A stretch of 64,000 nt of DNA from Candidatus Nomurabacteria bacterium (lineage in GTDB: Bacteria > Patescibacteriota > Minisyncoccia > Phycocordibacterales > UBA918). Shown piece by piece: positions 46,518-63,720 of this stretch (positions within the stretch are counted from its first letter, which is position 1; the number at the start of each line of letters is the position of its first letter). The notes under the pieces are model-generated. The model saw only the letters and a list, made by a program, of their open reading frames with translations. It ran no database searches and was not told where the DNA came from. The stretch is from assembly GCA_023898585.1 (NCBI GenBank), contig CP060229.1, forward strand, positions 526,763-590,762, read 5' to 3'. The translations under genes and the position numbers were made by a program.

Positions 46518-46767
46518 AATCAGTTCCTTAGACAAATAATAAAAAATTTTTCGCATCAATAATTATCATTGTTTACATAAAATTTTTTAAATCATCACAC
46601 TAAAATTTTTTTATTATTCTTATCCACAATTTTTTTTTCATAAATGAATTGTGCTTCTATCAATAACACGTCATAATATGAGTAAGCAAAAATCTTCTCC
46701 CTTACTGTTCTTTGAAAAATGAGAAGGTGTTGCGGTCGATATTTATTCATCTATCTCATATTGTAAT

Positions 46768-49915: not shown

Positions 49916-50260
49916 ATGACAATAATAACAAGAATTTTATTTAACTCACTGGGGTTGATTTTGATATCAAAACTCATCGATGGAATTACCGTCGATGGTC
50001 TTTATCCAGCCATTATTGCTTCAGTGGTTTTGGTTTTGTTTAATGTGATAATCAGGCCGATATTGCTAATACTGACTCTGCCGATCACTATTCTCACGCT
50101 CGGTCTGTTTGCTTTTGTGGTAAATGGTGCACTATTCCTTTTCGCCGCCTCTTTTATCGAAGGTTTTGAAGTGGCCAATTTTTGGTATGCTTTGCTAGGT
50201 TCGATTTTGATGAGTATTGTCAGTACGGTGGGAAACAGGTGGATCAGCAAAGAAAGTTGA
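49916..50260 (+). CDS. Four-TM membrane protein of the DUF360/YvlD ('phage holin 4') superfamily
   Basis: 114 aa. Hydrophobic segments SLGLILISKLI, IIASVVLVLFNVIIRPILLILTLPITILTLGLFAFVVNGALFLFAA, WYALLGSILMSIV. Confidence 0.5.
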   Translation: MTIITRILFNSLGLILISKLIDGITVDGLYPAIIASVVLVLFNVIIRPILLILTLPITILTLGLFAFVVNGALFLFAASFIEGFEVANFWYALLGSILMSIVSTVGNRWISKES

Positions 50261-51572: not shown

Positions 51573-52988
51573 ATGTCTTATACCCCAACAATCGGTTTAG
51601 AGATTCACGCGGAGCTAAAAACAAAAAGTAAAATGTTTTGCGGTTGCAAAAATGATCCTCACGAAGGAGCGCCGAATTCACACATTTGCCCGGTGTGTAT
51701 GGCGCACCCTGGAACCCTACCCGTACCGAATGAGCAGGCGATTGAAATGGTGCTCATGTTCGGACAGGCGGTCGGCGCGACAATAGCTGAATACTCAGAG
51801 TTCGACAGAAAAAATTACTTTTATCCGGATATTCCGAAAGCCTATCAAATTAGCCAGTACGCTTTTCCGTTTCTGACCGGAGGTCAATTATGTGGAGTAG
51901 ATCTAACCAGAGTGCACCTGGAGGAAGACACCGCTCGCAGTCAACATGACAAAGGAGACGAGAGTCTCGTTGACTTTAATCGCGCCGGGGTTCCCTTAAT
52001 GGAATTGGTTACCGAACCTGTCATACACGACGCAAAAACTGCTGGACAATTTGCCAAAGAATTACAACTACTACTAAGAACGCTGGGGATCTCGGACGCC
52101 AATATGGAAAGGGGAGAGATGAGAGTTGAGGCAAACATCTCTGTCAGCAAAAGTGTCACTGAGTTTGGCACAAAAGTAGAGGTAAAGAACCTTAACTCTT
52201 TTAAGTCGGTGGAAGGTGCTATTGAATACGAAATCAACAGACAAATAGAGTTGTTAGAGAATGGTGACAAAATAGTACAAGAGACAAGAGGGTGGGACGA
52301 GAACAAATCGAAGACTTTCACGCAACGCCAGAAGGAGACAGCTAAAGACTACAGATATTTTCCCGATCCGGACATACCCAAGATTAGTGTAGGTGAGTAC
52401 ATGCCTTTCTCAAAAACTATTCTGGCCGAGAAAATGCCTGATTTACCAAATAATAAAAGGGTAAATTATAAAAATCTCGGATTGACGAGCGACACCATAG
52501 AGACGGTAATTGCAGATCGAGAGCTAGACACCTTTATGTCAAAAGTTGTATCTAGCGGGGACGTAAATCAATCTGTGGTTAGACTTGCCGGCAATTACCT
52601 AACAACCGATGTGTCGGCTCTGGTAAGTACAAAAGAAAGAGTCTTGTCAGAGCTCAAGCCGGATCATTTTGTAGAACTGATGCAAATGTTGTCGGAGAAT
52701 AAGATCAGTTCTCGTGTCGCTAAGGATTTACTGCCTGATATGTTTGGTAGTGGCAAAATGCCTTCAGAGTTGGCTAAAGAAAGGAATCTATTGCAGTTAT
52801 CCGACGCCGGTTCCTTAGAACCACTTATAAAAGAAATTATCGCCGAGAATCAGACGGTTGTCGAGGAGTACAAGTCAGGTAAGGACGTTGCGATAAAGTT
52901 CTTGATTGGGCAGGCGATGAAGAAAACCAAAGGAGCAGCCAATCCGATCTTGCTTGAAGAACTGCTTGTAAAATCAATAATAGAATAA
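51573..52988 (+). CDS. gatB: Asp-tRNA(Asn)/Glu-tRNA(Gln) amidotransferase subunit B
   Basis: MSYTPTIGLEIHAELKTKSKMFCGC...CPVCMAHPGTLP (GatB zinc/cradle motifs). 471 aa with a C-terminal YqeY-like domain. Confidence 0.9.
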   Translation: MSYTPTIGLEIHAELKTKSKMFCGCKNDPHEGAPNSHICPVCMAHPGTLPVPNEQAIEMVLMFGQAVGATIAEYSEFDRKNYFYPDIPKAYQISQYAFPFLTGGQLCGVDLTRVHLEEDTARSQHDKGDESLVDFNRAGVPLMELVTEPVIHDAKTAGQFAKELQLLLRTLGISDANMERGEMRVEANISVSKSVTEFGTKVEVKNLNSFKSVEGAIEYEINRQIELLENGDKIVQETRGWDENKSKTFTQRQKETAKDYRYFPDPDIPKISVGEYMPFSKTILAEKMPDLPNNKRVNYKNLGLTSDTIETVIADRELDTFMSKVVSSGDVNQSVVRLAGNYLTTDVSALVSTKERVLSELKPDHFVELMQMLSENKISSRVAKDLLPDMFGSGKMPSELAKERNLLQLSDAGSLEPLIKEIIAENQTVVEEYKSGKDVAIKFLIGQAMKKTKGAANPILLEELLVKSIIE

Positions 52989-53071
52989 GCATTTCTCGTC
53001 TAACCCAGAAGTAATACACTTCCCACAGAAGTGTATTTTTCTTTAGTCTGATACAATAGAGGATAAGTATT

Positions 53072-54058
53072 ATGGACAAAGTGACATTTGACAAAGTTGA
53101 GTATGTAAAAGCCACTGTCGCTGCGAAGAGCTTTCGTTATTCATCAGACTATATTGGTCAGCTTTGCAGAGCAAAAAAAGTTGACGCCAGGCTAGTAGGA
53201 AGGACATGGTTTGTTAACGTAGATTCCATAAAAAGTTATCGCCACACAAAGAAAAACAAAAAGTCCACGAAAGGTTCTGCAAAAGATAGCAAACTGGATA
53301 CGGCTAGAGAAACCAGACCATTACGCTTAGACGTACCATCAGTCTTAAGTAATAAAACGGTAAAGATCATCTCAGCCAACAACTACAGGCCAAGTACAAC
53401 TCGTCTGTTGCGTGTGGCGTACGATAGAGACGAAGAAGCTCTCATCCCATCGCTTACTAAGAAGCAAGCAATGGCACCTAAAACAATCGTTATAAATCAG
53501 GCCGACGCCAAAAAGGTGACGATTTCTGGTAAAGATACGAAATCTCTTTCTTTTGCACCGACAAGTCTCCCCGACATTGCTCTATCCGGCAAGTTGAAAA
53601 TCACGGATTTAGTTGACGATGAAATACCAACTAGTGATACAAATTCTAGCCATAAAAACAAAGTCAAGTCGGCTGGCAAGATTTTAACCAGTAACAAGGG
53701 CAGAGAATACATCGCTAAGAAAATGGGAGAATCAAAAGCCAATAACAAGCATCCCTCAGAGGTTTCGAAGGAAGAAGCGTTTTTCAATAAAATTCTTGAC
53801 GATAAAAACATTGTTTCTAAAAATAGTCAGATTGGCACAATTATGCCTTCACAGTTTACGCCATTATCTATTAAAGAAGGTCGTGCGCACAAAAAACTCT
53901 CGATTATCGTCCTTGCCTCGCCTTTATTGGCGGTTGTGGTCGCTACACTTTGTTCGGCCATCTTGTTCTCTGCTGATTCTAGAGTCGTCGCCTCGGAATC
54001 TTTTTTCGAATCTAATATAGTTTTTCAAGTTGCGAATTTGCTAGAAGTTTTTGAGTAA
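53072..54058 (+). CDS. Membrane protein with N-terminal excisionase/MerR-type HTH (HTH_17-like) domain. Paralogue A.
   Basis: N-terminus VEYVKATVAAKSFRYSSDYIGQLCRAKKVDARLVGRTWFVNVDSIKSY matches the excisionase-family HTH pattern (...EAA..L.VS...I.rl.r.g.l.a.kvGR.W.i..e.l..y). C-terminal TM helix LSIIVLASPLLAVVVATLCSAILF. Confidence 0.5.
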   Translation: MDKVTFDKVEYVKATVAAKSFRYSSDYIGQLCRAKKVDARLVGRTWFVNVDSIKSYRHTKKNKKSTKGSAKDSKLDTARETRPLRLDVPSVLSNKTVKIISANNYRPSTTRLLRVAYDRDEEALIPSLTKKQAMAPKTIVINQADAKKVTISGKDTKSLSFAPTSLPDIALSGKLKITDLVDDEIPTSDTNSSHKNKVKSAGKILTSNKGREYIAKKMGESKANNKHPSEVSKEEAFFNKILDDKNIVSKNSQIGTIMPSQFTPLSIKEGRAHKKLSIIVLASPLLAVVVATLCSAILFSADSRVVASESFFESNIVFQVANLLEVFE

Positions 54059-54136
54059 CATTTCTCGCTTTTTGATCTTATACACAGGTGGGGATTTTAT
54101 TTAGACGAATTGACTTTATAATCAAAGTTAATTCGT

Positions 54137-54862
54137 ATGTCGCGCACATTAGATATTAATGGGAGGTTGTTGCATCCGGTCAAGGAGGCGGCCGCTAGTG
54201 TTTCTTATTCAAGAGATTACGTAACTCGATTGGCTCGTGAAAATAAAATCATCGCAACCAATGTCGGTCGACAGTGGTTCGTAGATTTGGAGTCTCTCAA
54301 AGGATACATCGAGAATGTTTCCATTGAACAGGAGATACGCAAAAAGCAACTAAGCTTCGATCGAATAAAAGAGCGAGAAATCAGAGAAGCAACAATAAAG
54401 CAACATACTTTACATTTAGGTAAAGTAAAAATGTTGAATGTAAAAGCTGTCTTAGTTGCTAGCTTTGTTTTGTCGCTCGGTCTTTTTTCCGGTTTTGTCG
54501 CCCACCTGCTTATCTCATCTTCCGATTCCCTCCAAGCGCAAGTGGTCGACACGAAAGGCAGGATAGCAGATTTGTCACAACCGAATAACAACTCAAACGT
54601 AGTCGCCGAGAAAGTTTCAGATGGGAGGAGTCAAGTCTATTCTCCGGAGAACGGACTAAGAATAATGGAGGATGTGCAAAATGGAGTATTACTGCTCCCG
54701 AATTATGGTTCAACTACCGTTGAAGATTTGTTTTCCGATGCAGTGGTGGTTCGTGATTTGTCCGACGGTTCCCAAGTCATACATATGATTAATGGAGAAG
54801 GTCGGGAAGTTGGTACGGAAATACCTTTCGTGGTTGTTCCGGTAAAACATTTAAATGAATGA
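54137..54862 (+). CDS. Membrane protein with N-terminal excisionase/MerR-type HTH (HTH_17-like) domain. Paralogue B.
   Basis: N-terminus LLHPVKEAAASVSYSRDYVTRLARENKIIATNVGRQWFVDLESLKGY aligns residue-for-residue with paralogue A. TM helix VKAVLVASFVLSLGLFSGFVAHLLI follows. Its stop overlaps the start of the giant gene. Confidence 0.5.
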   Translation: MSRTLDINGRLLHPVKEAAASVSYSRDYVTRLARENKIIATNVGRQWFVDLESLKGYIENVSIEQEIRKKQLSFDRIKEREIREATIKQHTLHLGKVKMLNVKAVLVASFVLSLGLFSGFVAHLLISSSDSLQAQVVDTKGRIADLSQPNNNSNVVAEKVSDGRSQVYSPENGLRIMEDVQNGVLLLPNYGSTTVEDLFSDAVVVRDLSDGSQVIHMINGEGREVGTEIPFVVVPVKHLNE

Positions 54863-57800
54863 GTATGATTTTTAGCAAGCAAAAAATTGGAGTTGTATTC
54901 GCACTGATACTTTCTTCAAGTTTCAGTTTGTTGGTTTTTCAATCTTCTACCGCCCACGCCGAACCCACCCCCACCATCAACTACCAAGGTAAGCTAACCG
55001 ACACCAATGGCCTCGCAGTCCCTGACGGCACATACAACATGCGCTTTTGGCTACTACAAAGCGAAGCGCAAGCGACCACGAGTGCTCTTTGGACAGAATC
55101 TCTCACCGGTAGCAATAAGGTGCAAGTTACCGATGGTCTATTCTCCATCATGCTTGGTTCCACGAGCGCTCTCACTTCCGTTGACTTCAATCAAACCCTC
55201 TACCTGGGAGTGGAGATAGGTGGTTCCACCACACCCGCTTGGGACGGTGAAATGTCACCTCGTAAACCACTCGGTACCGTCCCGGCTTCTTTCGAATCAT
55301 ACAAACTAGGAGGAGTAGCTTCTTCTTCTTTCCTACGCTCTGATCAAGCCGATACCATCTCCGCCAGCACTGCTTCCACGCTACTCACTATCATTCAAAA
55401 TGGAGTGGGAGATATCCTCAATATCTTCGACGGAGCTACTGAAGTCTTCACTATCCTCGATGGTGGCAATGTCGGTATCGGCTCATCATCTCCAAACAGC
55501 AAACTCACCATCGCCGGTAATACCAACATAGACAGCTACACCAACCTCCCCGGTTACTTCATCAACTCCATGCCGGCGGTTACTGGTTCGACTACTTTAA
55601 ACAACTTCTTCTTTGCTGGGGCGTCGAGTACGAGTTACTATTTCGGAGGTTATAACTATGCTATCGGAGATGGAGCGCTCACTAACTTAAACTGGGGAAG
55701 CAACAATATTGCAATTGGTCAAAACGCTATGAAGGCATCCGGTACCGCAGCAACCAATTTCTCCAATAACAACGCTCTGGGGAAGGATGCACTTTTCTCT
55801 ATAACTAGTGGTTCAAACAATAATGCTTTGGGAGAAGGTACATTGTCTACTAATACAACCGGTGGGGGCAATAATGCTTTTGGTTACCAAGCTCTCACCA
55901 GTAACGTCTCCGGCGGAGGTAACAATGCTCTTGGCGGGTGGGCTTTGCGTTTCAACACCACTGGTATGAATAACAACGCTATCGGCCCCAATGCAATGCA
56001 AGCCAATACCAGTGGTTCATACAATAATGTTTTGGGTACAGACGCTCTTTATACCAACACCACCGGTTCATACAATAATGCTTTTGGCTATAATGCTATG
56101 TACAGCAATACCGTGGGTTCTCATAATAACGCCATCGGTGAAGCTGCACTTGGCTACAACACTACCGGCTTACGCAATAATGCTTTCGGTTACAGTGCTC
56201 TCCTTAACAACAACGGCACCGGCACCATAGCGATCGGCTACCAAACCGCCGACAACGCCACCGGCGTCGACCGCGGTATCTTCATCGGCTACGACATCGA
56301 TGCTTTCTCTACTACTCAGGACGATGTGCTCAACATTGGTAACCTTATCTTCGGTAACAGTGTCAACGGTACCGGTCAAAATATCAGTACCGGTAACATC
56401 GGTATCGCGACCACTTCTTCGACTGCTCGCTTAACAGTCCAGTCTACCGGCACCTCCGATATCCTCAATCTCTTTGAAACGGGAGGCAGTGAAGTGTTCA
56501 CTGTACTGGAGAGTGGTAACGTTGGCATCGGCACCTCTTCACCCTACGCCAAACTCGGCGTAGCCGGTAACCTGGTAGCAACCGGTGTCATCAACACGCA
56601 GACTAACTCAGCCAACACTTTCGCCGGTCACCTTGACATCAACGGCACCGCCACCTCCACCTTCGCAAACGGCATCGAACTCGAAGGTGGTTGCTTCCGC
56701 GACCAAAGTGGTACCTGCATCAGCGCTCAAGGTGACACGCAGATAGTAGTCGCAGCAAACGACACCGACGTCAATCTCAAAGCCTACGCCGACTATGTTG
56801 CGGATGGTACGAACGACCAAGATGAAATCCAGTCTGCTATCGACTACGTCTACGCTAACGGTGGGGGAACCGTTCATCTTCTAGCCGGTACTTTCACCGT
56901 TGGTACCACTACCTACACCGACTCCGCTATCAGACTCGCTACTTCTACTCAACTCATTGGACAAGGAGATGCGACCGTCATCAAACTCCGTAACAGCTTC
57001 AACGCCAACATCTCCATCGTGCACGCGAAAAACGTCCAAGATGTTTACGTTGGACATTTGGCGGTGGATGGAAACAAGGCGAATCAGAGTGGGGGGACTG
57101 ATTATGGTGTTAATTTGCAAAACACTGGATCTAGTACTGTAGAAAATACATATGTACATAGTCTCTTTTATTACGGAATAAACGTGCAGGGTAATAATAA
57201 TAATGTTGTCTCTAACACGGTTCATAATAATCAATTGAGAGGTATCCAACTGACAGGTAGTTACAATACTGCTTCCCATAATATGATTAGTGATAATGGT
57301 AGTTGGGGTATATTTGTTGATGGTTCAATGAGTAACGTAACTAATAACATTATCAAGAACAATCCTACTGGTATACGTGTTAATGCGAGTTCAAACACAA
57401 TTTCTGGTAATCAGATTAGTCAAAGTACTACTTACGGAATAGATCTATCATCGAGTGCCTCCTACAACATAATAAATAGCAACGACATTATCGTGAATGC
57501 TGGGATAGGTATATATTTGAATTTGGTGACAGGTTATAACACAATTTCAGGTAACAATGTATATTTTAATGGGTATGGTATATACCTGAACACAAGTGCT
57601 AATAATACAGTCACTGCTAACAATTTTAGTGAAAACAGTTACGGTATTTACGGGACATGCTTTGCCTGTGTCTTGAATGCCAATACACTTACCGGTAATG
57701 ACACTGCCATTTATTTGGTTAACGGGGGATTGATATCTAGCAATTCTATCACTAACAATCAATTGATAGACAACGGTGGCACTGGCGCTACCAGTAGCAT

Positions 57801-60800
57801 AACATTGGTAAACGAAGACAATGCCCTCCTTTCCGGCAACCGCATCTACGACACCGCCGGTACCGGCTATGCCATCGATATCGACGCTGCTTCAGCTGGC
57901 GTGGTGCTCACCGACAACGTCTACTCCGGCACCGGGGCTACCGCCATCCGCGACTTAAGCTCCAACACTGAGTACACCCAGCACAACCGTATCACAGTCA
58001 ATGCCACCGACTCTGACTTTGCTTCTGGCGCATACACCGCGCTTAAAATAACCCAATCCGGTACTGGAGACATTGCCAACTTCTTTGATGGCTCCAATGA
58101 GGTGCTTACCATCCTTGATGGGGGTAACGTCGGTATCGGCACCACCACTCCAACCGCTCTCCTCACTGTCGGTAGTAGTACCGCGAGCTACCTCACCGCC
58201 GGTAACCTATACAACAGCGCTCTCGTCTCCGGTGCTCTTGAAGTCGGTGGACTCTCACACTTAGGTGGTGGTCTTATGAGCTATGCTTCGAGTACCTTCC
58301 TCTCTGGTCTTTCCATTGTCGGTAACGCCACTACCACCGGTACTCTCATTGTCCAAGGCACCGGCACCTCTACCTTCGGAGGAGGACTCCAAACCACCGG
58401 CAACCTCGACATCAACGGCACCGCCACCTCCACCTTCGCCAACGGCATCGAACTCGAAGGTGGTTGCTTCCGCGACCAAAGTGGCACTTGTATCACGAGC
58501 GGTACCTACGGTGACACACAGGTGGTAGTAGCAGCGAGCGACTCTGCATCTAACGAAAAAGCCCTAGCTGACTACACCGCTGACGGTACGAACGACCAAG
58601 ATGAAATCCAGTCTGCTATCGACTACGTCTACGCTAACGGTGGGGGAACCGTTCATCTTCTAGCCGGTACTTTCACCGTTGGTACCACTACGTACACTGA
58701 CAGTGCGATTAGACTCGCTACCTCCACCCAACTGATTGGACAGGGAAAGGCGACTGTCATCAAACTAAGAGATAACTTCAACAACAACATTAACATTGTC
58801 CACGCGTACAACGTCCAAGACGTCTACGTTGGACACTTGGCGGTGGATGGAAACAGGGACAATCAAGGATCAGGGTACAATGCTGGTGTATATCTAGAAG
58901 CAGGATCTTCCACTGTTCAGTATACGTATGAGCATGATTTACGAGGTGCCGGTATTGTTGTGCAAGGTTTTGGTGTTGCCGGAGGAGGTAATAACAACAG
59001 AATAATTTCGAACGTGGCTAATTCAAATGATACCGGCATCAGTATTAGTAATAGTGATAATAACATTATTTCTGGCAACACTGCCAGCAATAACGATACG
59101 TATACTACCAGTAGCGGTATTTATTTATCGGTTAGCAAGTACAACACCATATCCAACAATATTACCAATTACAACGGACAGCACGGTATCTATTTGAATG
59201 GAACTGTTTGGTATAACACCATTTCTAATAATGTGGCAGACGGAAATACTTATGATGGTATTAGGTTGAGTTCTATAAAAAATAGTACCATTATCTCAAA
59301 CTCACTCAGTAACAATGGATTAGCTGGAATTGGTTTGTCAGTCGGTGTTAGAAACACGATAACTGGTAATTCTATCTATAACAATGTATATGGCTTATGG
59401 CATAGTAATGGTAGTAATAATTCAATCAGTGCCAATTTTATAGAAGAAAACGATTATGGTATTTACATGAATCCAGGTAACTCTAATACTGTTACTGGTA
59501 ACTATTTATACAGCAACGGTGGCTCGTCAGCCACTAGTAGCATTACCCTCATTTCATCAGACAATAATATATTTGACGGTAACTACATATACGACACCGC
59601 CGGTACAGGTTATGCTATAGATATTGATGCTTCCTCAGATAACAACGTCCTCGCTAACAACGTCTACTCCGGCACCGGGGCAACCGCCATCCGCGACCTA
59701 AGCTCCAACACCAAGTACACGGAGCACAACCGTATCACCGTCAACGCCACCGACTCTGACTTTGCTTCGGGAGCATACACCGCGCTTACCATCACCCAGT
59801 CGGGAACAGGGAATATAGCTCAGTTCTTTGACGGCGGTACCGAAGCTTTTACTATAATGGACGGTGGAAATGTGGGAATCGGAGCTACCTCAACCAGCGA
59901 CAAACTAACCATCGCCGGCAACACCAACGTCTCCAGCTACACCAACCTCCCCGGTTACTTCATCAACTCCATGCCGGCTGTTACCGGTTCGACTACTTTA
60001 AACAACTTCTTCTTTGCGGGGGCGACTTCCAGTAGTTTCTACCTCGGAAGCCATAACTACGCGATGGGAAATGGCGCTCTTACCAACCTCGGTCAAGGAA
60101 GCTACAACTTCGCAGTTGGTGGAAACGCTCTTGCTGGTTCGAGTACGGCTGGTATGCACGGTTCCAGTAACATCGCCCTTGGCTATAGCACTCTTTTTAG
60201 TAACGTCTGGGGCGAACACAACAACGCTCTTGGTAACGAAGCATTGTATAGCAACACAAACGGTGGAGGTAATAATGCTCTCGGTTACCAAGCTCTTCGC
60301 TACAGTACAACCGGTGGAGCTAACAATGCTCTCGGTTATCAAGCACTCTTCAGTAACGTAACTGGTCACCGTAACAACGCTCTTGGTTACCAAACTCTCT
60401 TCTATAACACCACCGGAGCAGACAATAACGCCATTGGTGACAGCGCACTGTTTGTCAATAGTATAGGATCACGTAACAACGCCATTGGGTACAACACCAT
60501 CTTTAACAATACCGTTGGTTCAGACAATAACGCAATCGGACATAATGCTTTGTATAGCAATACTACCGGATCACGTAACAACGCCCTCGGTTACCACACT
60601 CTATACAGCAACAACGGCACCGGCACTATCGCCATCGGCTACCAAACCGCCGACAACGCCCTCTCCGTCGATCGCAGTATCTTCATCGGCTACAACATCG
60701 ACGCCTTCAGTACCACCGCCGACGATCAGCTCAACATCGGTAACTTAATCTTCGGTAACAACGTCAACGGTACTGGTCAAACCATCAGCTCCGGTAACAT

Positions 60801-62673
60801 CGGTATCGCCACTACTTCATCTACTGCTCGCTTAACAGTCCAGTCTACCGGCACCTCCGATATCCTCAATCTCTTTGAAACGGGAGGCAGTGAAGTGTTC
60901 ACGGTGTTGGAGAGTGGTAATGTTGGGATTGGTACTTCTTCGCCCTACGCCAAACTTTCCGTATTGGAGACAGGGGGTGGATCAAAATCGTTATTCGTAA
61001 TTGCTAGCTCAACCGGTGGTACGCCAAGTGGAGTCTTTGCGGTCGATGCTTACGGAAGGGTTGGTATTGGCAGTACCTCCCCCAAAGCCTCGCTTTTTAT
61101 CGCTGACACTGTCGGTAACAATGGCGTTTCAATTGCTGAAACTGAATACCCTGATTGGATGGGAGACGGAGGTATATTTATGAAAGGGGCAGTTTTTGCC
61201 AAAGGTGGTTATATTGCGGAGAACAGCGACACTTTCCGCTGGGGAGACTCTTCAACCAGGATAGGCGGTGTTGGAAGTTCCGGTACAGGATACTTTACGT
61301 TTGACACGGAGTCTACGGAGCGCATGCGCCTTACCGGCAGTGGCTACCTCGGCATCGGCACCACCACCCCCAACTCAAAACTCACCGTCAACGGTACCAC
61401 CACCATCGGAATGTATGGTGCAACCAGTACTCAAGCCGGGCTTCAAATTGGCTTCGGCGGAATCTGTGTCGACAATGACGGCTCCTGCGTTGCTTCCACT
61501 ACCGGCCGAATCTCAGCCGTTAACTTCCATACCGGCAACTCCGACCTAGCGGAAATGTACTTCAGTGATGTCGAATTACTGCCTGGAGAGCTGGTTTCTT
61601 TAATCAGCGGGTTCTCGGTAGATAGAGCAAGTAAGAAAGACTCTGCCCCTGTGCTTGGTGTAGTTTCCACCAAACCAGGATTGCTTCTTGGTCACGATGA
61701 TACTTCGCTAAACGAAGGGGAAACCGGTTACCCAATAGCACTATCCGGACGTGTGCCAGTTAAGATTTCTACCGAAAACGGAGTAATCAAACGAGGCGAC
61801 CAGCTCATGCTCTCGTCTCTCCCTGGAATTGCTATGAAAGCAACCGGCACCGGTATGGTAGTCGGTATAGCACTCGAAGACTTCAATGAAGGTAGAAAGT
61901 ATTCAGACGGCTACATCAATCAAGTTAATGATGATCTTGGCACTACCACTCCGGAAGAAGTGGAAGAGATTGCAAGAAAGATGATCAAAGAACGAACTGA
62001 TACTGAATACCTTGATAACGGCACTACAGTTAGAGTGGGACAAGTGGTAATGTTTGTTAACAGTTCTTATCGGTGGTTGGATGATCGGGAATTGGCCGGA
62101 CTGCAGACACTAATGAGCACGTCAAATATTACCGTCTTTGGTAAAAACGAAAACGAAACTCTATTTGATCGCTTAGTTATGCTGGCCAATCGGTTTGTCG
62201 ATGGGATACTTTCAGTCTTTGAACTCAGGGCCAACCGAGTAGAAGTAGCCGATGAACTTTGTGTTGATGATGTGTGTGTGACTGCCGATGATCTGCGAGC
62301 GTTACTACAAGACGACGAACGTCTGTCTGGTGGTAACAATAATACTGCTGTGCCAGATACTGACGATAACGGTGGTGCGACTCCGGATGTCGATACGGAT
62401 GGTGACTACACGTCTACAGTTAAGGACGAACAACAACCAGAAGAAGATAATATAGATGTGCCGATTGAATCAGTTTCTGATGATGCGGTAGCGGGGAATA
62501 GTACCGATGGAGATTTAGGTTCCGAATCAACCCTTTCAACTGAACAGACGACAGAGACAGAAGAGGAAAGTACCGTCTCTGAATCGGAGTCAGAATCTGA
62601 AACTGTGGCAAATGAAGAGACTTCTATCGAAGAAGCAGCGCCGGGAGTAACAACAGAAGAACCAACGACATGA
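54859..62673 (+). CDS. Giant (2,604 aa) secreted mosaic surface protein related to tail-fibre/tailspike proteins. It has a signal peptide, five or more GNVGIGTxxP tail-fibre motifs, two 17-residue NNAxG repeat tracts, two pectate-lyase-3-type right-handed beta-helix domains, a C-terminal tail-fibre-like domain and an acidic tail.
   Basis: Signal peptide MSMIFSKQKIGVVFALILSSSFSLLVFQSSTAHA. Two copies of DGTNDQDEIQSAIDYVYANGGGTVHLLAGTFTV, resembling the Pectate_lyase_3/tailspike N-cap. Each is followed by PbH1-type repeats (e.g. NNIISGNTASNNDTY...YNTISNNITNYNGQHGIYLNG). Repeat tracts (NNALGYQALxSNTTGxx)n of YadA-head/Hep_Hag style. Repeated motif FTVLESGNVGIGTSSPYAKL. The single ORF is uninterrupted over 7.8 kb. 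Confidence 0.8.
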   Translation: MSMIFSKQKIGVVFALILSSSFSLLVFQSSTAHAEPTPTINYQGKLTDTNGLAVPDGTYNMRFWLLQSEAQATTSALWTESLTGSNKVQVTDGLFSIMLGSTSALTSVDFNQTLYLGVEIGGSTTPAWDGEMSPRKPLGTVPASFESYKLGGVASSSFLRSDQADTISASTASTLLTIIQNGVGDILNIFDGATEVFTILDGGNVGIGSSSPNSKLTIAGNTNIDSYTNLPGYFINSMPAVTGSTTLNNFFFAGASSTSYYFGGYNYAIGDGALTNLNWGSNNIAIGQNAMKASGTAATNFSNNNALGKDALFSITSGSNNNALGEGTLSTNTTGGGNNAFGYQALTSNVSGGGNNALGGWALRFNTTGMNNNAIGPNAMQANTSGSYNNVLGTDALYTNTTGSYNNAFGYNAMYSNTVGSHNNAIGEAALGYNTTGLRNNAFGYSALLNNNGTGTIAIGYQTADNATGVDRGIFIGYDIDAFSTTQDDVLNIGNLIFGNSVNGTGQNISTGNIGIATTSSTARLTVQSTGTSDILNLFETGGSEVFTVLESGNVGIGTSSPYAKLGVAGNLVATGVINTQTNSANTFAGHLDINGTATSTFANGIELEGGCFRDQSGTCISAQGDTQIVVAANDTDVNLKAYADYVADGTNDQDEIQSAIDYVYANGGGTVHLLAGTFTVGTTTYTDSAIRLATSTQLIGQGDATVIKLRNSFNANISIVHAKNVQDVYVGHLAVDGNKANQSGGTDYGVNLQNTGSSTVENTYVHSLFYYGINVQGNNNNVVSNTVHNNQLRGIQLTGSYNTASHNMISDNGSWGIFVDGSMSNVTNNIIKNNPTGIRVNASSNTISGNQISQSTTYGIDLSSSASYNIINSNDIIVNAGIGIYLNLVTGYNTISGNNVYFNGYGIYLNTSANNTVTANNFSENSYGIYGTCFACVLNANTLTGNDTAIYLVNGGLISSNSITNNQLIDNGGTGATSSITLVNEDNALLSGNRIYDTAGTGYAIDIDAASAGVVLTDNVYSGTGATAIRDLSSNTEYTQHNRITVNATDSDFASGAYTALKITQSGTGDIANFFDGSNEVLTILDGGNVGIGTTTPTALLTVGSSTASYLTAGNLYNSALVSGALEVGGLSHLGGGLMSYASSTFLSGLSIVGNATTTGTLIVQGTGTSTFGGGLQTTGNLDINGTATSTFANGIELEGGCFRDQSGTCITSGTYGDTQVVVAASDSASNEKALADYTADGTNDQDEIQSAIDYVYANGGGTVHLLAGTFTVGTTTYTDSAIRLATSTQLIGQGKATVIKLRDNFNNNINIVHAYNVQDVYVGHLAVDGNRDNQGSGYNAGVYLEAGSSTVQYTYEHDLRGAGIVVQGFGVAGGGNNNRIISNVANSNDTGISISNSDNNIISGNTASNNDTYTTSSGIYLSVSKYNTISNNITNYNGQHGIYLNGTVWYNTISNNVADGNTYDGIRLSSIKNSTIISNSLSNNGLAGIGLSVGVRNTITGNSIYNNVYGLWHSNGSNNSISANFIEENDYGIYMNPGNSNTVTGNYLYSNGGSSATSSITLISSDNNIFDGNYIYDTAGTGYAIDIDASSDNNVLANNVYSGTGATAIRDLSSNTKYTEHNRITVNATDSDFASGAYTALTITQSGTGNIAQFFDGGTEAFTIMDGGNVGIGATSTSDKLTIAGNTNVSSYTNLPGYFINSMPAVTGSTTLNNFFFAGATSSSFYLGSHNYAMGNGALTNLGQGSYNFAVGGNALAGSSTAGMHGSSNIALGYSTLFSNVWGEHNNALGNEALYSNTNGGGNNALGYQALRYSTTGGANNALGYQALFSNVTGHRNNALGYQTLFYNTTGADNNAIGDSALFVNSIGSRNNAIGYNTIFNNTVGSDNNAIGHNALYSNTTGSRNNALGYHTLYSNNGTGTIAIGYQTADNALSVDRSIFIGYNIDAFSTTADDQLNIGNLIFGNNVNGTGQTISSGNIGIATTSSTARLTVQSTGTSDILNLFETGGSEVFTVLESGNVGIGTSSPYAKLSVLETGGGSKSLFVIASSTGGTPSGVFAVDAYGRVGIGSTSPKASLFIADTVGNNGVSIAETEYPDWMGDGGIFMKGAVFAKGGYIAENSDTFRWGDSSTRIGGVGSSGTGYFTFDTESTERMRLTGSGYLGIGTTTPNSKLTVNGTTTIGMYGATSTQAGLQIGFGGICVDNDGSCVASTTGRISAVNFHTGNSDLAEMYFSDVELLPGELVSLISGFSVDRASKKDSAPVLGVVSTKPGLLLGHDDTSLNEGETGYPIALSGRVPVKISTENGVIKRGDQLMLSSLPGIAMKATGTGMVVGIALEDFNEGRKYSDGYINQVNDDLGTTTPEEVEEIARKMIKERTDTEYLDNGTTVRVGQVVMFVNSSYRWLDDRELAGLQTLMSTSNITVFGKNENETLFDRLVMLANRFVDGILSVFELRANRVEVADELCVDDVCVTADDLRALLQDDERLSGGNNNTAVPDTDDNGGATPDVDTDGDYTSTVKDEQQPEEDNIDVPIESVSDDAVAGNSTDGDLGSESTLSTEQTTETEEESTVSESESESETVANEETSIEEAAPGVTTEEPTT
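56423..56555 (+). repeat. Intragenic near-identical DNA repeat, copy 1 of the ARLTVQSTGTSDILNLFETGGSEVFTVLESGNVGIGTSSPYAKL module. Copy 2 is at ~60824-60958.
   Basis: About 77 consecutive identical nucleotides (ctgctcgcttaacagtccagtctaccggcacctccgatatcctcaatctctttgaaacgggaggcagtgaagtgttcac) and about 130 nt at >90% identity, read directly. Confidence 0.8.
58585..58690 (+). repeat. Intragenic near-identical DNA repeat (beta-helix N-cap DGTNDQDEIQSAIDYVYANGGGTVHLLAGTFTVGTT), copy 2. Copy 1 is at ~56806-56912. The adjacent DINGTATSTFANGIELEGGCFRDQSGTC repeat is at ~56634-56712 and ~58409-58484.
   Basis: About 106 consecutive identical nucleotides between the two copies. Identity then decays to mostly synonymous differences. 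Confidence 0.8.
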
Positions 62674-63012: not shown

Positions 63013-63720
63013 ATGATCACAAATTTTGTACACGTAAGTCGCGCCTTTATCTACGCATTCGTAGCCAGCATCACCACTGTCTCGCTATTGCTTGCGGGTT
63101 TCTTCTTGACTGAGCCAGCAATTGGACACAGTCAGGATGACACTGCTGTCTTTACAGTAAGACAACAAATCACCGGAGAGACTTCATTCTTAGTTGATCC
63201 TTCTCCTGTTACAATGTCAGGTACCATCAGTGGTATCACTGGTGGACAAGCTACCGGCACGACAGATTTTGTCGTTATATCCAACAATGGTGCCGGATAT
63301 AGAGTGGATATCAGTTTCACCGATGAGAACGCGGACGGTGAGATGATGGAAGGAGAAACAACTGACGGTGGTGAGATCCGCGACTATGGGGCTGGTCTCA
63401 CTCAACCTTCATATGGCTACACCAGTAGCTCATCCGCCCAGTTTGCCTATACTGTGACCTCCTTAACTTCAACTGACACCGATCCTTCTTTCTTGAACAA
63501 TGGCTCCAACGCTTGTAATTCCGGTTCCACACAGACTGCTAACACCTGTTGGAAAGCACCGGACACAGCGGCCTTCACCATAGTTAATCGGTCGGGACCT
63601 GCTACTACTGGAGCTACCTCAACTCTTACTTTTAATGTGACTGTACCAAACGGTGCGATACCGGTACCAAAGGCGGAATATTATACCGCTACCGCCACCT
63701 TGTCACTTTACGTAAACTAA
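63013..63720 (+). CDS. Secreted/membrane-anchored Thr/Gly-rich hypothetical protein
   Basis: N-terminal hydrophobic segment AFIYAFVASITTVSLLLAGFFL. T/S/G-rich body with two Cys pairs. Lies immediately downstream of the giant gene. Confidence 0.5.
   Translation: MITNFVHVSRAFIYAFVASITTVSLLLAGFFLTEPAIGHSQDDTAVFTVRQQITGETSFLVDPSPVTMSGTISGITGGQATGTTDFVVISNNGAGYRVDISFTDENADGEMMEGETTDGGEIRDYGAGLTQPSYGYTSSSSAQFAYTVTSLTSTDTDPSFLNNGSNACNSGSTQTANTCWKAPDTAAFTIVNRSGPATTGATSTLTFNVTVPNGAIPVPKAEYYTATATLSLYVN

What the first reader, a model, noticed from the sequence alone, without database searches (positions are those of the whole stretch)
53072..54862. Two tandem paralogous excisionase-type HTH proteins with transmembrane helices immediately upstream of (and overlapping) the giant surface-protein gene
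The N-terminal ~50 aa of both proteins align closely (YVKATVAAKSFRYSSDYIGQLCRAKKVDARLVGRTWFVNVDSIKSY vs LLHPVKEAAASVSYSRDYVTRLARENKIIATNVGRQWFVDLESLKGY). Both fit the excisionase/MerR-like HTH_17 pattern, whose hallmark is 'vGRrWri...l..yl'. Each is followed by a linker and a single TM helix. This gives the topology of membrane-tethered one-component regulators or anti-sigma-like factors. The stop of the second gene overlaps the giant gene's start codon (54859-54862), so the three are probably co-transcribed. Membrane-anchored DNA-binding proteins coupled to a tail-fibre-like megaprotein are unusual. They could regulate or localise expression of the surface structure, or they could be the remnant of a phage-derived excisionase module.
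Basis: partly seen in the sequence, partly recalled or inferred. Interest (0 to 1): 0.6.

Follow-up and report, generated by a model that had tools for sequence, protein, structure and literature searches.

The report
Membrane-tethered HTH pair beside giant protein
Two neighbouring genes of an uncultured Parcubacteria (CPR) bacterium encode single-pass membrane proteins with an excisionase-type DNA-binding fold facing the cytoplasm, and the second one is start/stop-coupled to a giant surface-protein gene here and fused to that gene's product in some relatives, so it looks like the giant protein's detachable membrane-and-cytoplasm module rather than a phage leftover.

Summary
ORF A (53072-54058, 328 aa) and ORF B (54137-54862, 241 aa) share a paralogous N-terminal winged-HTH of the HTH_17/excisionase fold. 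Each has one transmembrane helix with N-in topology. B's stop overlaps the start of the 2604-aa giant gene (ATGA).

New evidence changes the picture.
- Both proteins are full-length conserved families restricted to Paceibacteria/Parcubacteria. They always lie in the order gatB-A-B, in about 50 loci. There are no phage relatives, no integrase and no tRNA, so a prophage remnant is rejected.
- Wherever a giant gene follows B, its start lies within -20 to +11 nt of B's stop.
- In at least three divergent lineages (L042/L048, L049, L047/L057) the B-type HTH, charged helix and TM form the N-terminus of the giant protein itself.
- Unfused giants have only a cleavable signal peptide and no membrane anchor.

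B is therefore best read as the split-off membrane and cytoplasmic module of the giant surface protein. Whether its HTH regulates transcription (ToxR/CadC-like) or tethers structure (RodZ/RacA-like) is unresolved.

A conserved, covarying inverted repeat around a TATAAT box and a DnaA-box-like 9-mer lie just upstream of B.

The proteins are uncharacterised. I rate this a new variant of membrane-tethered HTH proteins, of moderately high interest.

The parts
53013..53037 (+). Terminator-like hairpin with T-tract after gatB (AATACACTTC-CCACA-GAAGTGTATT, then TTTCTTT). It separates gatB from gene A.
   Evidence: The equivalent hairpin (AATACAC...GTGTATTTTT) recurs in the gatB-A spacer of most related loci.
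53049..53057 (+). Extended -10-like element TGaTACAAT, 14 nt before A's ATG. It is the probable promoter of A and would give a nearly leaderless mRNA.
   Evidence: Read from the sequence. CTG(A/T/G)TAnAAT lies 7-14 nt before A's start in most related loci. This is an inference; no transcript data are available.
53072..54058 (+). Gene A (328 aa). Domains: cytoplasmic winged HTH (aa 1-57); a long, basic, mostly disordered linker with two conserved short motifs (Y117-x2-D120-x3-L124-x-P126 and P167-x3-L171-S-G173); TM helix about aa 276-298 (nt 53897-53965); a 30-aa outside tail.
54078..54086 (+). TTATACACA, a DnaA-box-like 9-mer (TTATNCACA) just after A's stop and about 30 nt upstream of the TATAAT.
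   Evidence: Conserved, with variants TTATCAACA, TTATTAACA and TTGTCCACA, in nearly all related A-B spacers. A related 9-mer on either strand occurs in some divergent lineages. There are only 2 matches in the whole window, so this is not an origin-type cluster.
54106..54135 (+). Inverted repeat of 13 bp per arm, CGAATTGACTTTA-TAAT-CAAAGTTAATTCG. It encloses TATAAT (54117-54122) and ends 1 nt before B's ATG.
   Evidence: In alignment A6 of 34 loci, 85% of cells are paired versus 76% in shuffles (0/500). 11 of 16 pairs have changes on both sides. Slid controls give 27-47%. Frequent G-U pairs occur only in the sense orientation. The core CTTTATAATTAAAG occurs once per locus, always at this place, in 805 kb. 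There is no Rfam match.
54137..54862 (+). Gene B (241 aa). Domains: cytoplasmic winged HTH_17 (aa 1-58, nt 54137-54310); one continuous helix aa 51-129 whose charged part (59-100) is 52% E/K/R/Q and whose end is the TM segment (aa 104-126, nt 54446-54514); a disordered acidic outside linker; a small conserved beta domain (aa 180-236, nt 54674-54844).
54859..62673 (+). Giant secreted protein (2604 aa). Its start overlaps B's stop (ATGA). Features: signal peptide aa 1-34 (AHA/EP); N-terminal domain (aa 35 to about 220, nt 54961-55518), the part best conserved across relatives; beta-helix and NosD-like repeats; nested internal duplications; a conserved C-terminal region of about 350 aa; no membrane anchor of its own.
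63013..63720 (+). 235-aa secreted protein, the first gene of a conserved downstream surface-protein cluster. In relatives the cluster continues with a weak WxLIP_PGBD protein, a paralogue of the 235-aa protein and an fn3 protein. In some relatives this cluster, not the giant gene, directly follows B.

Best explanation
A and B are clade-specific bitopic inner-membrane proteins. B is the detachable membrane and cytoplasmic module of the giant surface protein.

In some lineages one polypeptide runs from a cytoplasmic excisionase-type winged HTH, through a long charged helix and a single TM helix, into a multi-thousand-residue extracellular fibre. In the window's lineage this has been split. B keeps the HTH, helix and TM and carries a small outside beta domain. 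The giant protein is translated from the overlapping next ORF, exported by a cleavable signal peptide, and (inferred) held at the cell surface by B.

The cytoplasmic HTH domains of B and of its paralogue A most likely bind DNA. This would make the complex a membrane-tethered one-component device, working like ToxR/CadC or TcpP, that links the state of the surface fibre to transcription. The obvious candidate target is its own B-giant promoter region.

Shown: the folds, the topology, the conservation, the start/stop coupling and the fusions.
Inferred: the docking of the giant protein on B, DNA binding, and any regulatory output.
For: Conservation of the pair:
- A and B each have more than 100 full-length homologues, all in Paceibacteria/Kaiserbacteria/Nomurabacteria-type MAGs. 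Many share contigs or consecutive locus tags.
- The B family has 234 representatives (50%-identity clusters) at E<=1e-30.
- The order gatB-A-B is seen in about 50 loci.

Coupling to the giant gene:
- In the 25 loci of the genome scan where a giant gene follows B, the gap is -20 to +11 nt. Besides the window, four of them (L018, L019, L024, L033) have the same ATGA overlap. When another gene follows B, the gap is typically about 80-320 nt.
- ORFs at L042/L048 (>=2399 aa), L049 (>=1317 aa), L047 (>=1442 aa) and L057 (>=3252 aa) sit at the same gatB-A-[...] position. Each begins with a B-type HTH (HMM E 1e-16 to 1e-18, better than the A-type HMM), a charged helix and one TM, and then runs into a long serine/threonine/glycine-rich extracellular region, which in L042/L048, L047 and L057 has detectable similarity to the window giant's repeats.
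- These fused forms lack both B's outside domain and the giant protein's N-terminal 165-200 residues.
- Unfused giants have an N-terminal signal peptide with an AXA site and, with one possible exception (L044), no other hydrophobic segment.

HTH domains:
- The AF2 model of B has pLDDT 82.5, with an HTH and a single helix 51-129 leading into the membrane.
- The HTH folds match DNA-bound relatives: Xis, RdfS, BldC, TraN and RacA.
- The HTH is the most conserved part of both proteins (64-70% versus 11-46% elsewhere) and is net basic.

Upstream elements:
- Conserved non-coding elements lie only upstream of B.
Against: - There are no experimental data of any kind. Every genome is a MAG.
- The whole secA-gatB-A-B region is syntenic in this clade (SecA 58-82% identical), so gene order alone is weak evidence.
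- In 5-6 loci (L012, L015, L022, L023, L029, L054) no giant gene lies within the sequence available downstream (up to 10 kb; L023 and L054 are short), yet B keeps its outside domain. That domain may therefore have another partner, such as the WxL-like cluster or the cell wall.
- The arms of the inverted repeat differ between lineages while the HTH recognition helix hardly changes, and G-U pairing points to an RNA hairpin. This argues against the repeat being the HTH's operator.
- Foldseek E-values are weak (0.04-0.4).
- A barely reaches Pfam HTH_17.
- The oligomeric state of the proteins is unknown.
Confidence: 0.45

Rival explanations
1. Structural tether rather than regulator. A and B anchor the surface fibre, or the envelope, to something inside the cell. 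The HTH would act as a protein-protein interface, as in RodZ, whose cytoplasmic HTH binds MreB. Alternatively it would act as a chromosome-to-membrane tether with little sequence specificity, as in RacA. There would be no transcriptional output.
For: - RacA-DNA (5i44) is among the best fold matches of A's HTH.
- B's HTH sits on a roughly 45-residue charged, SAH-like helix that would act as a rigid spacer.
- A carries conserved short linear motifs in a disordered linker, typical of partner-binding peptides.
- The near-invariance of whole HTH surfaces fits a conserved protein partner as well as it fits a DNA site.
- The RodZ architecture (HTH-TM-outside domain) is the same; this comparison rests on my own knowledge.
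Against: - The fold class is one whose characterised members bind DNA.
- The HTH domains are net basic.
- No MreB, FtsZ or similar gene is linked to the pair.
- Nothing distinguishes this reading from the regulator model computationally.
Confidence: 0.27
2. A and B are membrane-bound transcription factors (ToxR/TcpP-type pairs) that merely regulate the adjacent surface-protein genes (the giant gene and the WxL-like cluster). They would not be physically part of the giant-protein assembly.
For: - The pair persists where the WxL-like cluster, not the giant gene, follows B.
- Conserved promoter-proximal elements lie upstream of B.
- Transmembrane transcription regulators controlling pili or fimbriae are known, for example TcpP/TcpH (PMC11323476) and PsaE/PsaF (PMC6657601).
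Against: - The covalent HTH-TM-giant fusions in at least three lineages are hard to explain for a pure regulator.
- The start/stop overlap with the giant gene points the same way.
- The giant protein has no anchor of its own.
Confidence: 0.15
3. Anti-sigma-factor-like membrane proteins (RsgI/RskA-type) that release a sigma factor when the outside domain senses a signal.
For: Only the bitopic topology, with a cytoplasmic N-terminal domain and an outside C-terminal part.
Against: - The N-terminal domain is an HTH_17 fold, not an anti-sigma domain.
- There are no Pfam or NCBIfam anti-sigma hits, even at E<=10.
- No sigma-factor gene lies next to the pair in the window or in the roughly 50 loci. 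The neighbours are gatB and surface-protein genes.
Confidence: 0.03
4. Decayed excisionase genes of a prophage or integrative element that delivered the tail-fibre-like giant gene.
For: - There is HTH_17/TIGR01764 'excisionase' similarity, and a weak PHROG excisionase hit for A (E 0.0056).
- The giant protein's repeats resemble phage virion and tail-spike families.
Against: - The chromosomal position between housekeeping genes is fixed across a whole clade.
- Both families are under strong full-length conservation, including the TM helices and outside parts.
- There is no integrase, tRNA or att-like repeat.
- No homologues were found in IMG/VR or INPHARED.
Confidence: 0.01

Closest known systems
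ToxR-like transmembrane transcription regulators (CadC, ToxR/ToxS, TcpP/TcpH, PsaE/PsaF, VtrA/VtrC)
   Same: They share the architecture of a cytoplasmic N-terminal DNA-binding domain, a linker, one TM helix and an outside domain. They often act as a pair of adjacent single-pass proteins and often control surface structures such as pili or fimbriae (PMC5430869, PMC11323476, PMC6657601).
   Different: - Their DNA-binding domain is an OmpR-type winged helix (Trans_reg_C), not HTH_17. No such Pfam hit is found here.
- Here both partners carry an HTH.
- The outside part is a giant fibre, either fused or start/stop-coupled, rather than a small sensor domain.
- DNA binding is not shown here.
RodZ (bitopic cytoskeleton-associated HTH protein)
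   Same: The architecture HTH, basic linker, single TM and outside domain is the same. RodZ is a precedent for a membrane-tethered HTH used for protein binding rather than transcription (my own knowledge of the RodZ literature).
   Different: - RodZ has an XRE-type HTH (HTH_25) and a DUF4115 outside domain. Neither is detected here.
- No link to mreB is seen here.
Excisionase / MerR-like HTH_17 DNA-binding proteins (phage Xis such as Pukovnik Xis, RdfS, BldC, TraN of pIP501, RacA N-domain)
   Same: The winged-HTH fold is the same. Local rmsd is 1.6-2.6 A over 46-55 residues, with TM-score to the target of 0.5-0.73. B reaches the HTH_17 and TIGR01764 thresholds.
   Different: - Those proteins are small and soluble (50-120 aa), or carry a soluble coiled coil in the case of RacA.
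- They act in recombination directionality, development, conjugation or chromosome anchoring.
- None has a TM helix or a link to a surface protein.
- No recombinase partner is present here.
RsgI-type anti-sigma factors of cellulolytic clostridia
   Same: These are bitopic proteins whose large outside modules contact extracellular material and pass the information to the transcription machinery. They are a functional analogue for 'surface contact controls transcription' (my own knowledge).
   Different: - They act by sequestering a sigma factor through an anti-sigma domain.
- No such domain or sigma gene is present here.
WxL / Csc cell-surface complex gene clusters of Firmicutes
   Same: The genes downstream of the giant gene form a conserved set of secreted proteins. 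One has a weak WxLIP_PGBD (DUF916) match, flanked by two paralogous proteins of about 235-255 aa.
   Different: - The match is below Pfam's threshold (21 bits versus 27.3).
- No WxL domain hit was obtained for the 235-aa protein.
- No HTH-TM proteins are described in Csc clusters, to my knowledge.

Membership tests
HTH_17 / excisionase-family DNA-binding domain (PF12728, TIGR01764) | Sequence score at or above the curated threshold | tested here: met
   For B: PF12728 gives 27.9 bits for residues 1-68 (gathering score 27) and 24.9 bits full-length. TIGR01764 gives 28.9 bits against a cutoff of 28.8. 106 of 112 family members hit at E<=0.01. For A taken alone the feature is not met: 12.5 bits, and 3 of 115 members hit. 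A is linked only through profile-profile similarity to B (98.5%).
HTH_17 / excisionase-family DNA-binding domain (PF12728, TIGR01764) | Winged helix-turn-helix fold of the Xis/MerR-N type | tested here: met
   AF2 pLDDT is 95-98 for both N-termini. The best Foldseek matches are Pukovnik Xis, RdfS, BldC, RacA and TraN, at rmsd 1.6-2.6 A, although E-values are only 0.04-0.5.
Functional excisionase (recombination directionality factor) | Small soluble protein encoded next to an integrase in a mobile element | tested here: not met
   The proteins are 241-328 aa membrane proteins. The neighbours are gatB and surface-protein genes. There is no tRNA and there are no phage relatives. The chromosomal position is fixed in about 50 loci.
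DNA-binding activity of the HTH | Binds DNA, specifically or not | not testable with these tools
   The only support is indirect: the fold class, net basic charge (+1.5 for B, +3.3 for A) and strong conservation of the recognition helix and wing.
ToxR-like transmembrane transcription regulators | OmpR-type winged-helix DNA-binding domain (Trans_reg_C) | tested here: not met
   No Trans_reg_C hit appears even at E<=10. The fold found is HTH_17.
ToxR-like transmembrane transcription regulators | Bitopic N-in topology: cytoplasmic DNA-binding domain, one TM, outside domain | tested here: met
   Hydropathy, AF2 helices and the family-wide positive-inside charge pattern agree. These are predictions, not experiments.
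RodZ | XRE-type HTH (HTH_25) plus DUF4115 outside domain | tested here: not met
   No such Pfam hits were found.
Anti-sigma factors (RsgI, RskA, zf-HC2 types) | Anti-sigma N-terminal domain and an adjacent cognate sigma-factor gene | tested here: not met
   There are no domain hits, and no sigma gene is adjacent in the window or in related loci.
MerR-family regulators | MerR HTH followed by an antiparallel coiled-coil dimerisation helix and an effector-binding C-terminus, in a soluble protein | tested here: not met
   There is no MerR or MerR_1 Pfam hit at E<=10. The long helix of B continues into a TM segment, which is incompatible with an antiparallel MerR dimer.
Split/fused 'HTH-TM-giant surface protein' module (proposed here) | The B-type module occurs either start/stop-coupled to a giant secreted protein or fused to its N-terminus, at the same genomic position | tested here: met
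   Coupling of -20 to +11 nt is seen in 25 loci. Fusions occur in L042/L048, L049, L047 and L057.

The most novel reading that the evidence does not exclude
In these ultra-small, probably host-attached bacteria, a multi-thousand-residue surface fibre is wired through a single membrane-spanning helix to a DNA-binding domain inside the cell. The link is covalent in some lineages and runs via B in others. Contact or tension at the fibre would then be read out directly at the chromosome. This would be a one-molecule adhesin-to-DNA signalling or tethering device with no described counterpart. A would be its paralogous partner, and the conserved palindrome/TATAAT and TTATNCACA elements upstream of B would be its control region.
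Probability: 0.25. Interest if true: 0.85.

Novelty: new variant of a known kind. Interest (0 to 1): 0.62.

Why it matters
CPR/Patescibacteria are thought to live attached to host cells, and their giant surface proteins are prime candidates for host recognition (for example in Vampirococcus, PMC8080830). How these proteins are anchored and how attachment is sensed is unknown.

This locus gives a concrete, conserved and testable candidate. A clade-wide pair of membrane proteins has cytoplasmic domains with a DNA-binding fold. One of them is alternately fused to, or translationally coupled with, the giant protein. If the HTH binds DNA, this would be a very direct route from the cell surface to gene expression in organisms with few classical signalling systems. 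If it does not, it is a new use of the excisionase fold as a structural anchor.

Either way it corrects database labels such as 'excisionase family DNA binding protein' for these genes.

Tried and rejected
- **Phage origin.** The PHROG scan gave only a weak excisionase hit for A. The IMG/VR pattern scan and tblastn against INPHARED found nothing. No tRNA was found. Rejected.
- **Sequence search of PDB.** The B profile and the B HTH alone gave no meaningful hits.
- **Rfam scan of 52900-55000.** No match.
- **Origin of replication.** The TTATNCACA motif occurs only twice in 64 kb, which is the chance level. The GC-skew dip at 54-62 kb coincides with the giant gene.
- **Inverted-repeat core as a regulon motif.** It occurs only upstream of B.
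- **More fused examples.** A third homology search with the fused N-termini returned only fragments and ordinary B proteins. The metagenome scan was more useful.
- **B's outside domain in the fused proteins.** An HMM of the domain against the L042 and L047 fused proteins gave no hit. A faint resemblance of its LFSDxVxV...DG motif to the giant protein's recurring 'IFDGATEVFTILDGGN' motif had a negative score, and I do not rely on it.
- **Literature.** Searches for a description of such proteins found none.
- **Other copies.** No further copy of the HTH exists in the window.
Full report
**1. What is in the sequence**

ORF A (53072-54058, 328 aa) and ORF B (54137-54862, 241 aa) lie on the + strand, between gatB (51573-52988) and a 2604-aa ORF (54859-62673).

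- B's TGA (54860-54862) overlaps the giant ORF's ATG (54859-54861) as ATGA.
- The two N-termini align at 20/40 identities, E 8e-11.
- Each protein has exactly one strongly hydrophobic 19-23-residue segment: A 276-298 and B 104-126. The giant ORF has only an N-terminal one.
- The window belongs to an uncultured Parcubacteria genome. The identical B protein is NCBI 'hypothetical protein KC865_00825 [Candidatus Kaiserbacteria bacterium]', seen on contigs up to 995 kb. The same gene order recurs on several independent metagenome contigs.

**2. The shared domain is an excisionase-type winged HTH**

- B reaches Pfam HTH_17 at 24.9 bits full-length and 27.9 bits for residues 1-68 (gathering score 27). 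It reaches TIGR01764 at 28.9 bits against a cutoff of 28.8.
- 106 of 112 B-family members hit HTH_17, but only 3 of 115 A-family members do.
- A is tied to the fold through profile-profile similarity to B: 98.5% probability, E 3.2e-15, over 71 columns restricted to the N-terminus.
- AF2 models built on alignments of 112 and 115 sequences give the same beta-beta-alpha-alpha-beta-beta-alpha domain at pLDDT 95-98.
- The best local Foldseek hits are Pukovnik Xis (rmsd 1.6-1.8 A over 46-47 residues), RdfS, BldC-DNA, RacA-DNA and TraN. The E-values are only 0.04-0.5, as expected for a 50-residue domain. The fold assignment therefore rests on the sum of these lines of evidence.
- No MerR, Trans_reg_C, XRE or anti-sigma domain is detected.

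**3. Architecture**

B, from the AF2 model:
- HTH at residues 1-50.
- One uninterrupted helix at 51-129. Its cytoplasmic part (59-100) is 52% E/K/R/Q, resembling a single-alpha-helix spacer. Its end is the TM segment.
- A disordered acidic stretch at 133-175.
- A small, conserved beta domain at 180-236, with the motif GILLLP...LFSDxVxV...DG...VD..G...PFVVVPV.

A, from the AF2 model:
- HTH at residues 1-57.
- A roughly 210-residue, basic, mostly disordered linker. It holds two conserved short motifs, Y117-x2-D120-x3-L124-x-P126 and P167-x3-L171-S-G173.
- A TM helix at about 276-298, then a 30-residue tail.

In both families the N-terminal side is net positive and the C-terminal side net negative. 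This places the HTH domains in the cytoplasm. The topology is a prediction; no DeepTMHMM run or experiment was available.

**4. Conservation and context**

- Each protein has more than 100 full-length homologues, all from Paceibacteria/Kaiserbacteria/Nomurabacteria-type MAGs. Many A/B pairs share a contig or have consecutive locus tags.
- An exhaustive profile search gives 234 cluster representatives at E<=1e-30 for the B family.
- A scan of one genome per species returned 41 loci. A metagenome scan added 10 more. Wherever the sequence reaches that far, the order is (secA-holin_4_2-obg-)gatB-A-B.
- SecA identity among these loci is 58-82%, so the whole region is syntenic. Gene order by itself therefore proves little.
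- There are no relatives in IMG/VR or in GenBank phages, and the window has no tRNA. The prophage-remnant idea is rejected.

**5. The link to the giant protein**

Three observations go beyond synteny.

- (a) Where a giant gene follows B (25 loci of the genome scan), its start lies -20 to +11 nt from B's stop. Besides the window, four of them (L018, L019, L024, L033) have the same 4-nt ATGA overlap. Where a 235-aa secreted-protein gene follows instead, the gap is typically about 80-320 nt. Many contigs break a few hundred bases into the giant gene. This fits its nested internal repeats.
- (b) In L042/L048, L049, L047 and L057 the ORF after A is one continuous reading frame. It starts with a B-type HTH, a charged helix and a single TM helix, then runs on for at least 1317 to at least 3252 residues of serine/threonine/glycine-rich extracellular sequence, which in L042/L048, L047 and L057 has detectable similarity to the window giant's repeats. 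These loci are the most divergent ones (SecA 58-69%). The HTH scores E 1e-16 to 1e-18 with the B-type HMM and 1e-12 to 1e-13 with the A-type HMM.
- These are not read-through artefacts of the split arrangement. The fused proteins lack B's outside domain (no HMM hit). They also lack the giant protein's signal peptide and its N-terminal 165-200 residues.
- (c) Unfused giants, in the window and in seven relatives, have a signal peptide ending in an AXA site followed by (E/Q)PTPTINYQGKLTD. With one possible exception (L044, which has a hydrophobic stretch near its C-terminus), they have no other hydrophobic segment. The N-terminal domain of about 190 residues is the part best conserved across relatives, at about 45-80% identity, against 30-45% for A and B.

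The simplest reading is that HTH-TM-fibre is one functional unit. In the window's lineage it is split into B and a secreted giant protein. B's outside domain and the giant protein's N-domain are the candidate docking pair. That last step is inference.

It is weakened by 5-6 loci (L012, L015, L022, L023, L029, L054) where B keeps its outside domain although no giant gene lies within the sequence available downstream (up to 10 kb; L023 and L054 are short). In those loci a conserved cluster follows B instead: 235-aa proteins, a weak WxLIP_PGBD protein and an fn3 protein.

**6. Non-coding elements**

- After gatB there is a terminator-like hairpin (53013-53037). It is followed by an extended -10-like TGaTACAAT (53049-53057), 14 nt before A's ATG. 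The equivalent TGnTAnAAT lies 7-14 nt before A in relatives. A probably starts its own, nearly leaderless transcript.
- The A-B spacer holds a DnaA-box-like 9-mer (54078-54086, TTATACACA), conserved in nearly all loci. It occurs only at chance frequency in the window as a whole.
- The spacer also holds an inverted repeat with 13-bp arms (54106-54135) around an invariant GCTTTATAATTAAAGC-type core. Its TATAAT is always 14-16 nt (20 nt in two loci) before B's ATG.
- On 34 loci the repeat is 85% paired, versus 76% in shuffles (0/500) and 27-47% in slid controls. 11 of 16 pairs have changes on both sides, and there are many G-U pairs in the sense orientation.
- The spacer RNA folds at -21.1 kcal/mol, z -3.9. 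There is no Rfam match.
- The core occurs once per locus, only at this place, in 805 kb.
- Several divergent lineages, including the L047/L057 fused lineage, also have an inverted repeat embracing a -10-like TAnAAT, for example AATAACTAgTAAAATaTAGTTATT.

B and the giant gene therefore have their own conserved control region. I cannot tell whether it works as an RNA hairpin in read-through transcripts, as an operator over a -10 box, or as both. The arms vary while the HTH recognition helices hardly do. That argues against the arms being the HTH's specific site.

**7. Mechanism and rivals**

Best-supported model (confidence 0.45):
- B is the membrane and cytoplasmic module of the giant surface protein.
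- A is its paralogous partner.
- The HTH domains bind DNA and couple the surface structure to transcription, working like ToxR/CadC/TcpP-type transmembrane regulators, which often come in pairs and control pili or fimbriae (PMC5430869, PMC11323476, PMC6657601).
- It is not a member of that family, because the DNA-binding domain is different.

Rivals:
- Main rival (0.27): the HTH is a structural interface or a nucleoid tether, as in RodZ or RacA.
- Pure regulators with no physical link to the giant protein (0.15). The fusions argue against this.
- Anti-sigma-like (0.03) and prophage remnant (0.01). Both are essentially excluded.

**8. Novelty**

- Sources label these proteins 'hypothetical' or 'excisionase family DNA binding protein'.
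- I found no paper describing them.
- Giant membrane proteins are noted in CPR genomes as probable host-attachment factors (PMC8080830), but no anchoring or signalling partner is described there.
- I rate this a new variant of a known kind (membrane-tethered HTH proteins), with a real chance that it is something more unusual.

**Limits**

- Everything is inferred from MAG sequence.
- TM and signal-peptide calls are from hydropathy, AXA motifs and AF2.
- No complex prediction could be run.
- Two structure libraries were unavailable.

Noticed in passing
window 54106-54135 (and the same place in L007-L036, L039, L050-L053): A covarying inverted repeat with 13-16 bp arms surrounds an invariant GCTTTATAATTAAAGC-type core. 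It ends 1-3 nt before B's start codon, and its TATAAT is fixed 14-16 nt from the ATG. G-U pairs occur only in the sense strand, which suggests an RNA hairpin. There is no Rfam family. It occurs once per locus, only here. Several divergent lineages, including the L047/L057 fused lineage, have a different palindrome that also embraces a -10-like TAnAAT.
   Followed up: yes
window 54078-54086; also 46620-46628: A DnaA-box-like 9-mer, TTATNCACA, is conserved right after A's stop codon in nearly all related loci. A related 9-mer on either strand occurs upstream of the fused genes of the L047/L057 lineage. L049 has three or four such boxes clustered. The only other match in the window is in the murB-secA spacer. 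It may be a transcription-factor site; it is not an origin-type cluster.
   Followed up: partly
window 63013-63720 and beyond the window end; L012 10849-15090; L016 16913-19454: A conserved downstream cluster of secreted proteins is present. It consists of two paralogous 235-255-aa proteins flanking a roughly 355-aa protein with a sub-threshold WxLIP_PGBD (DUF916) match (E 3.7e-4), followed by a 568-aa fn3 protein. It resembles the WxL/Csc cell-surface clusters of Firmicutes. Its order relative to the giant gene varies between genomes.
   Followed up: partly
window 54859-62673: The giant gene contains nested internal duplications. Copies are 78-93% identical, spaced about 1.77 kb apart (56.6-58.1 kb versus 58.4-59.9 kb) and 4.4 kb apart (55.4-56.5 kb versus 59.8-60.9 kb). 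There are also 51-nt tandem units. Many related contigs end a few hundred bases into this gene, presumably because of these repeats. GC skew turns negative across the gene.
   Followed up: partly
L042 8678-9673: In the lineage with the fused HTH-TM-giant gene, the A-type protein carries two tandem HTH domains (aa 3-60 and 83-139) before its C-terminal TM helix.
   Followed up: partly
window 49916-50260: A 114-aa Phage_holin_4_2 family membrane protein (E 4e-30) sits between secA and obg. It is conserved at that position in almost all related loci, so it is a chromosomal housekeeping-context gene rather than a prophage gene.
   Followed up: partly
window 53072-54058, aa 112-130 and 161-178: Two short conserved motifs, Y-x2-D-x3-L-x-P and P-x3-L-S-G, lie inside an otherwise disordered and poorly conserved cytoplasmic linker of A. 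They look like partner-binding peptides. No partner was identified.
   Followed up: no
L008, L011, L023, L025, L026, L032, L041, L044, L045 (record titles): Several third-party MAG records are titled 'uncultured Candidatus Saccharibacteria bacterium'. They carry this Paceibacteria-type locus, with SecA 68-82% identical to the window. The organism label in those records is probably generic or wrong.
   Followed up: no
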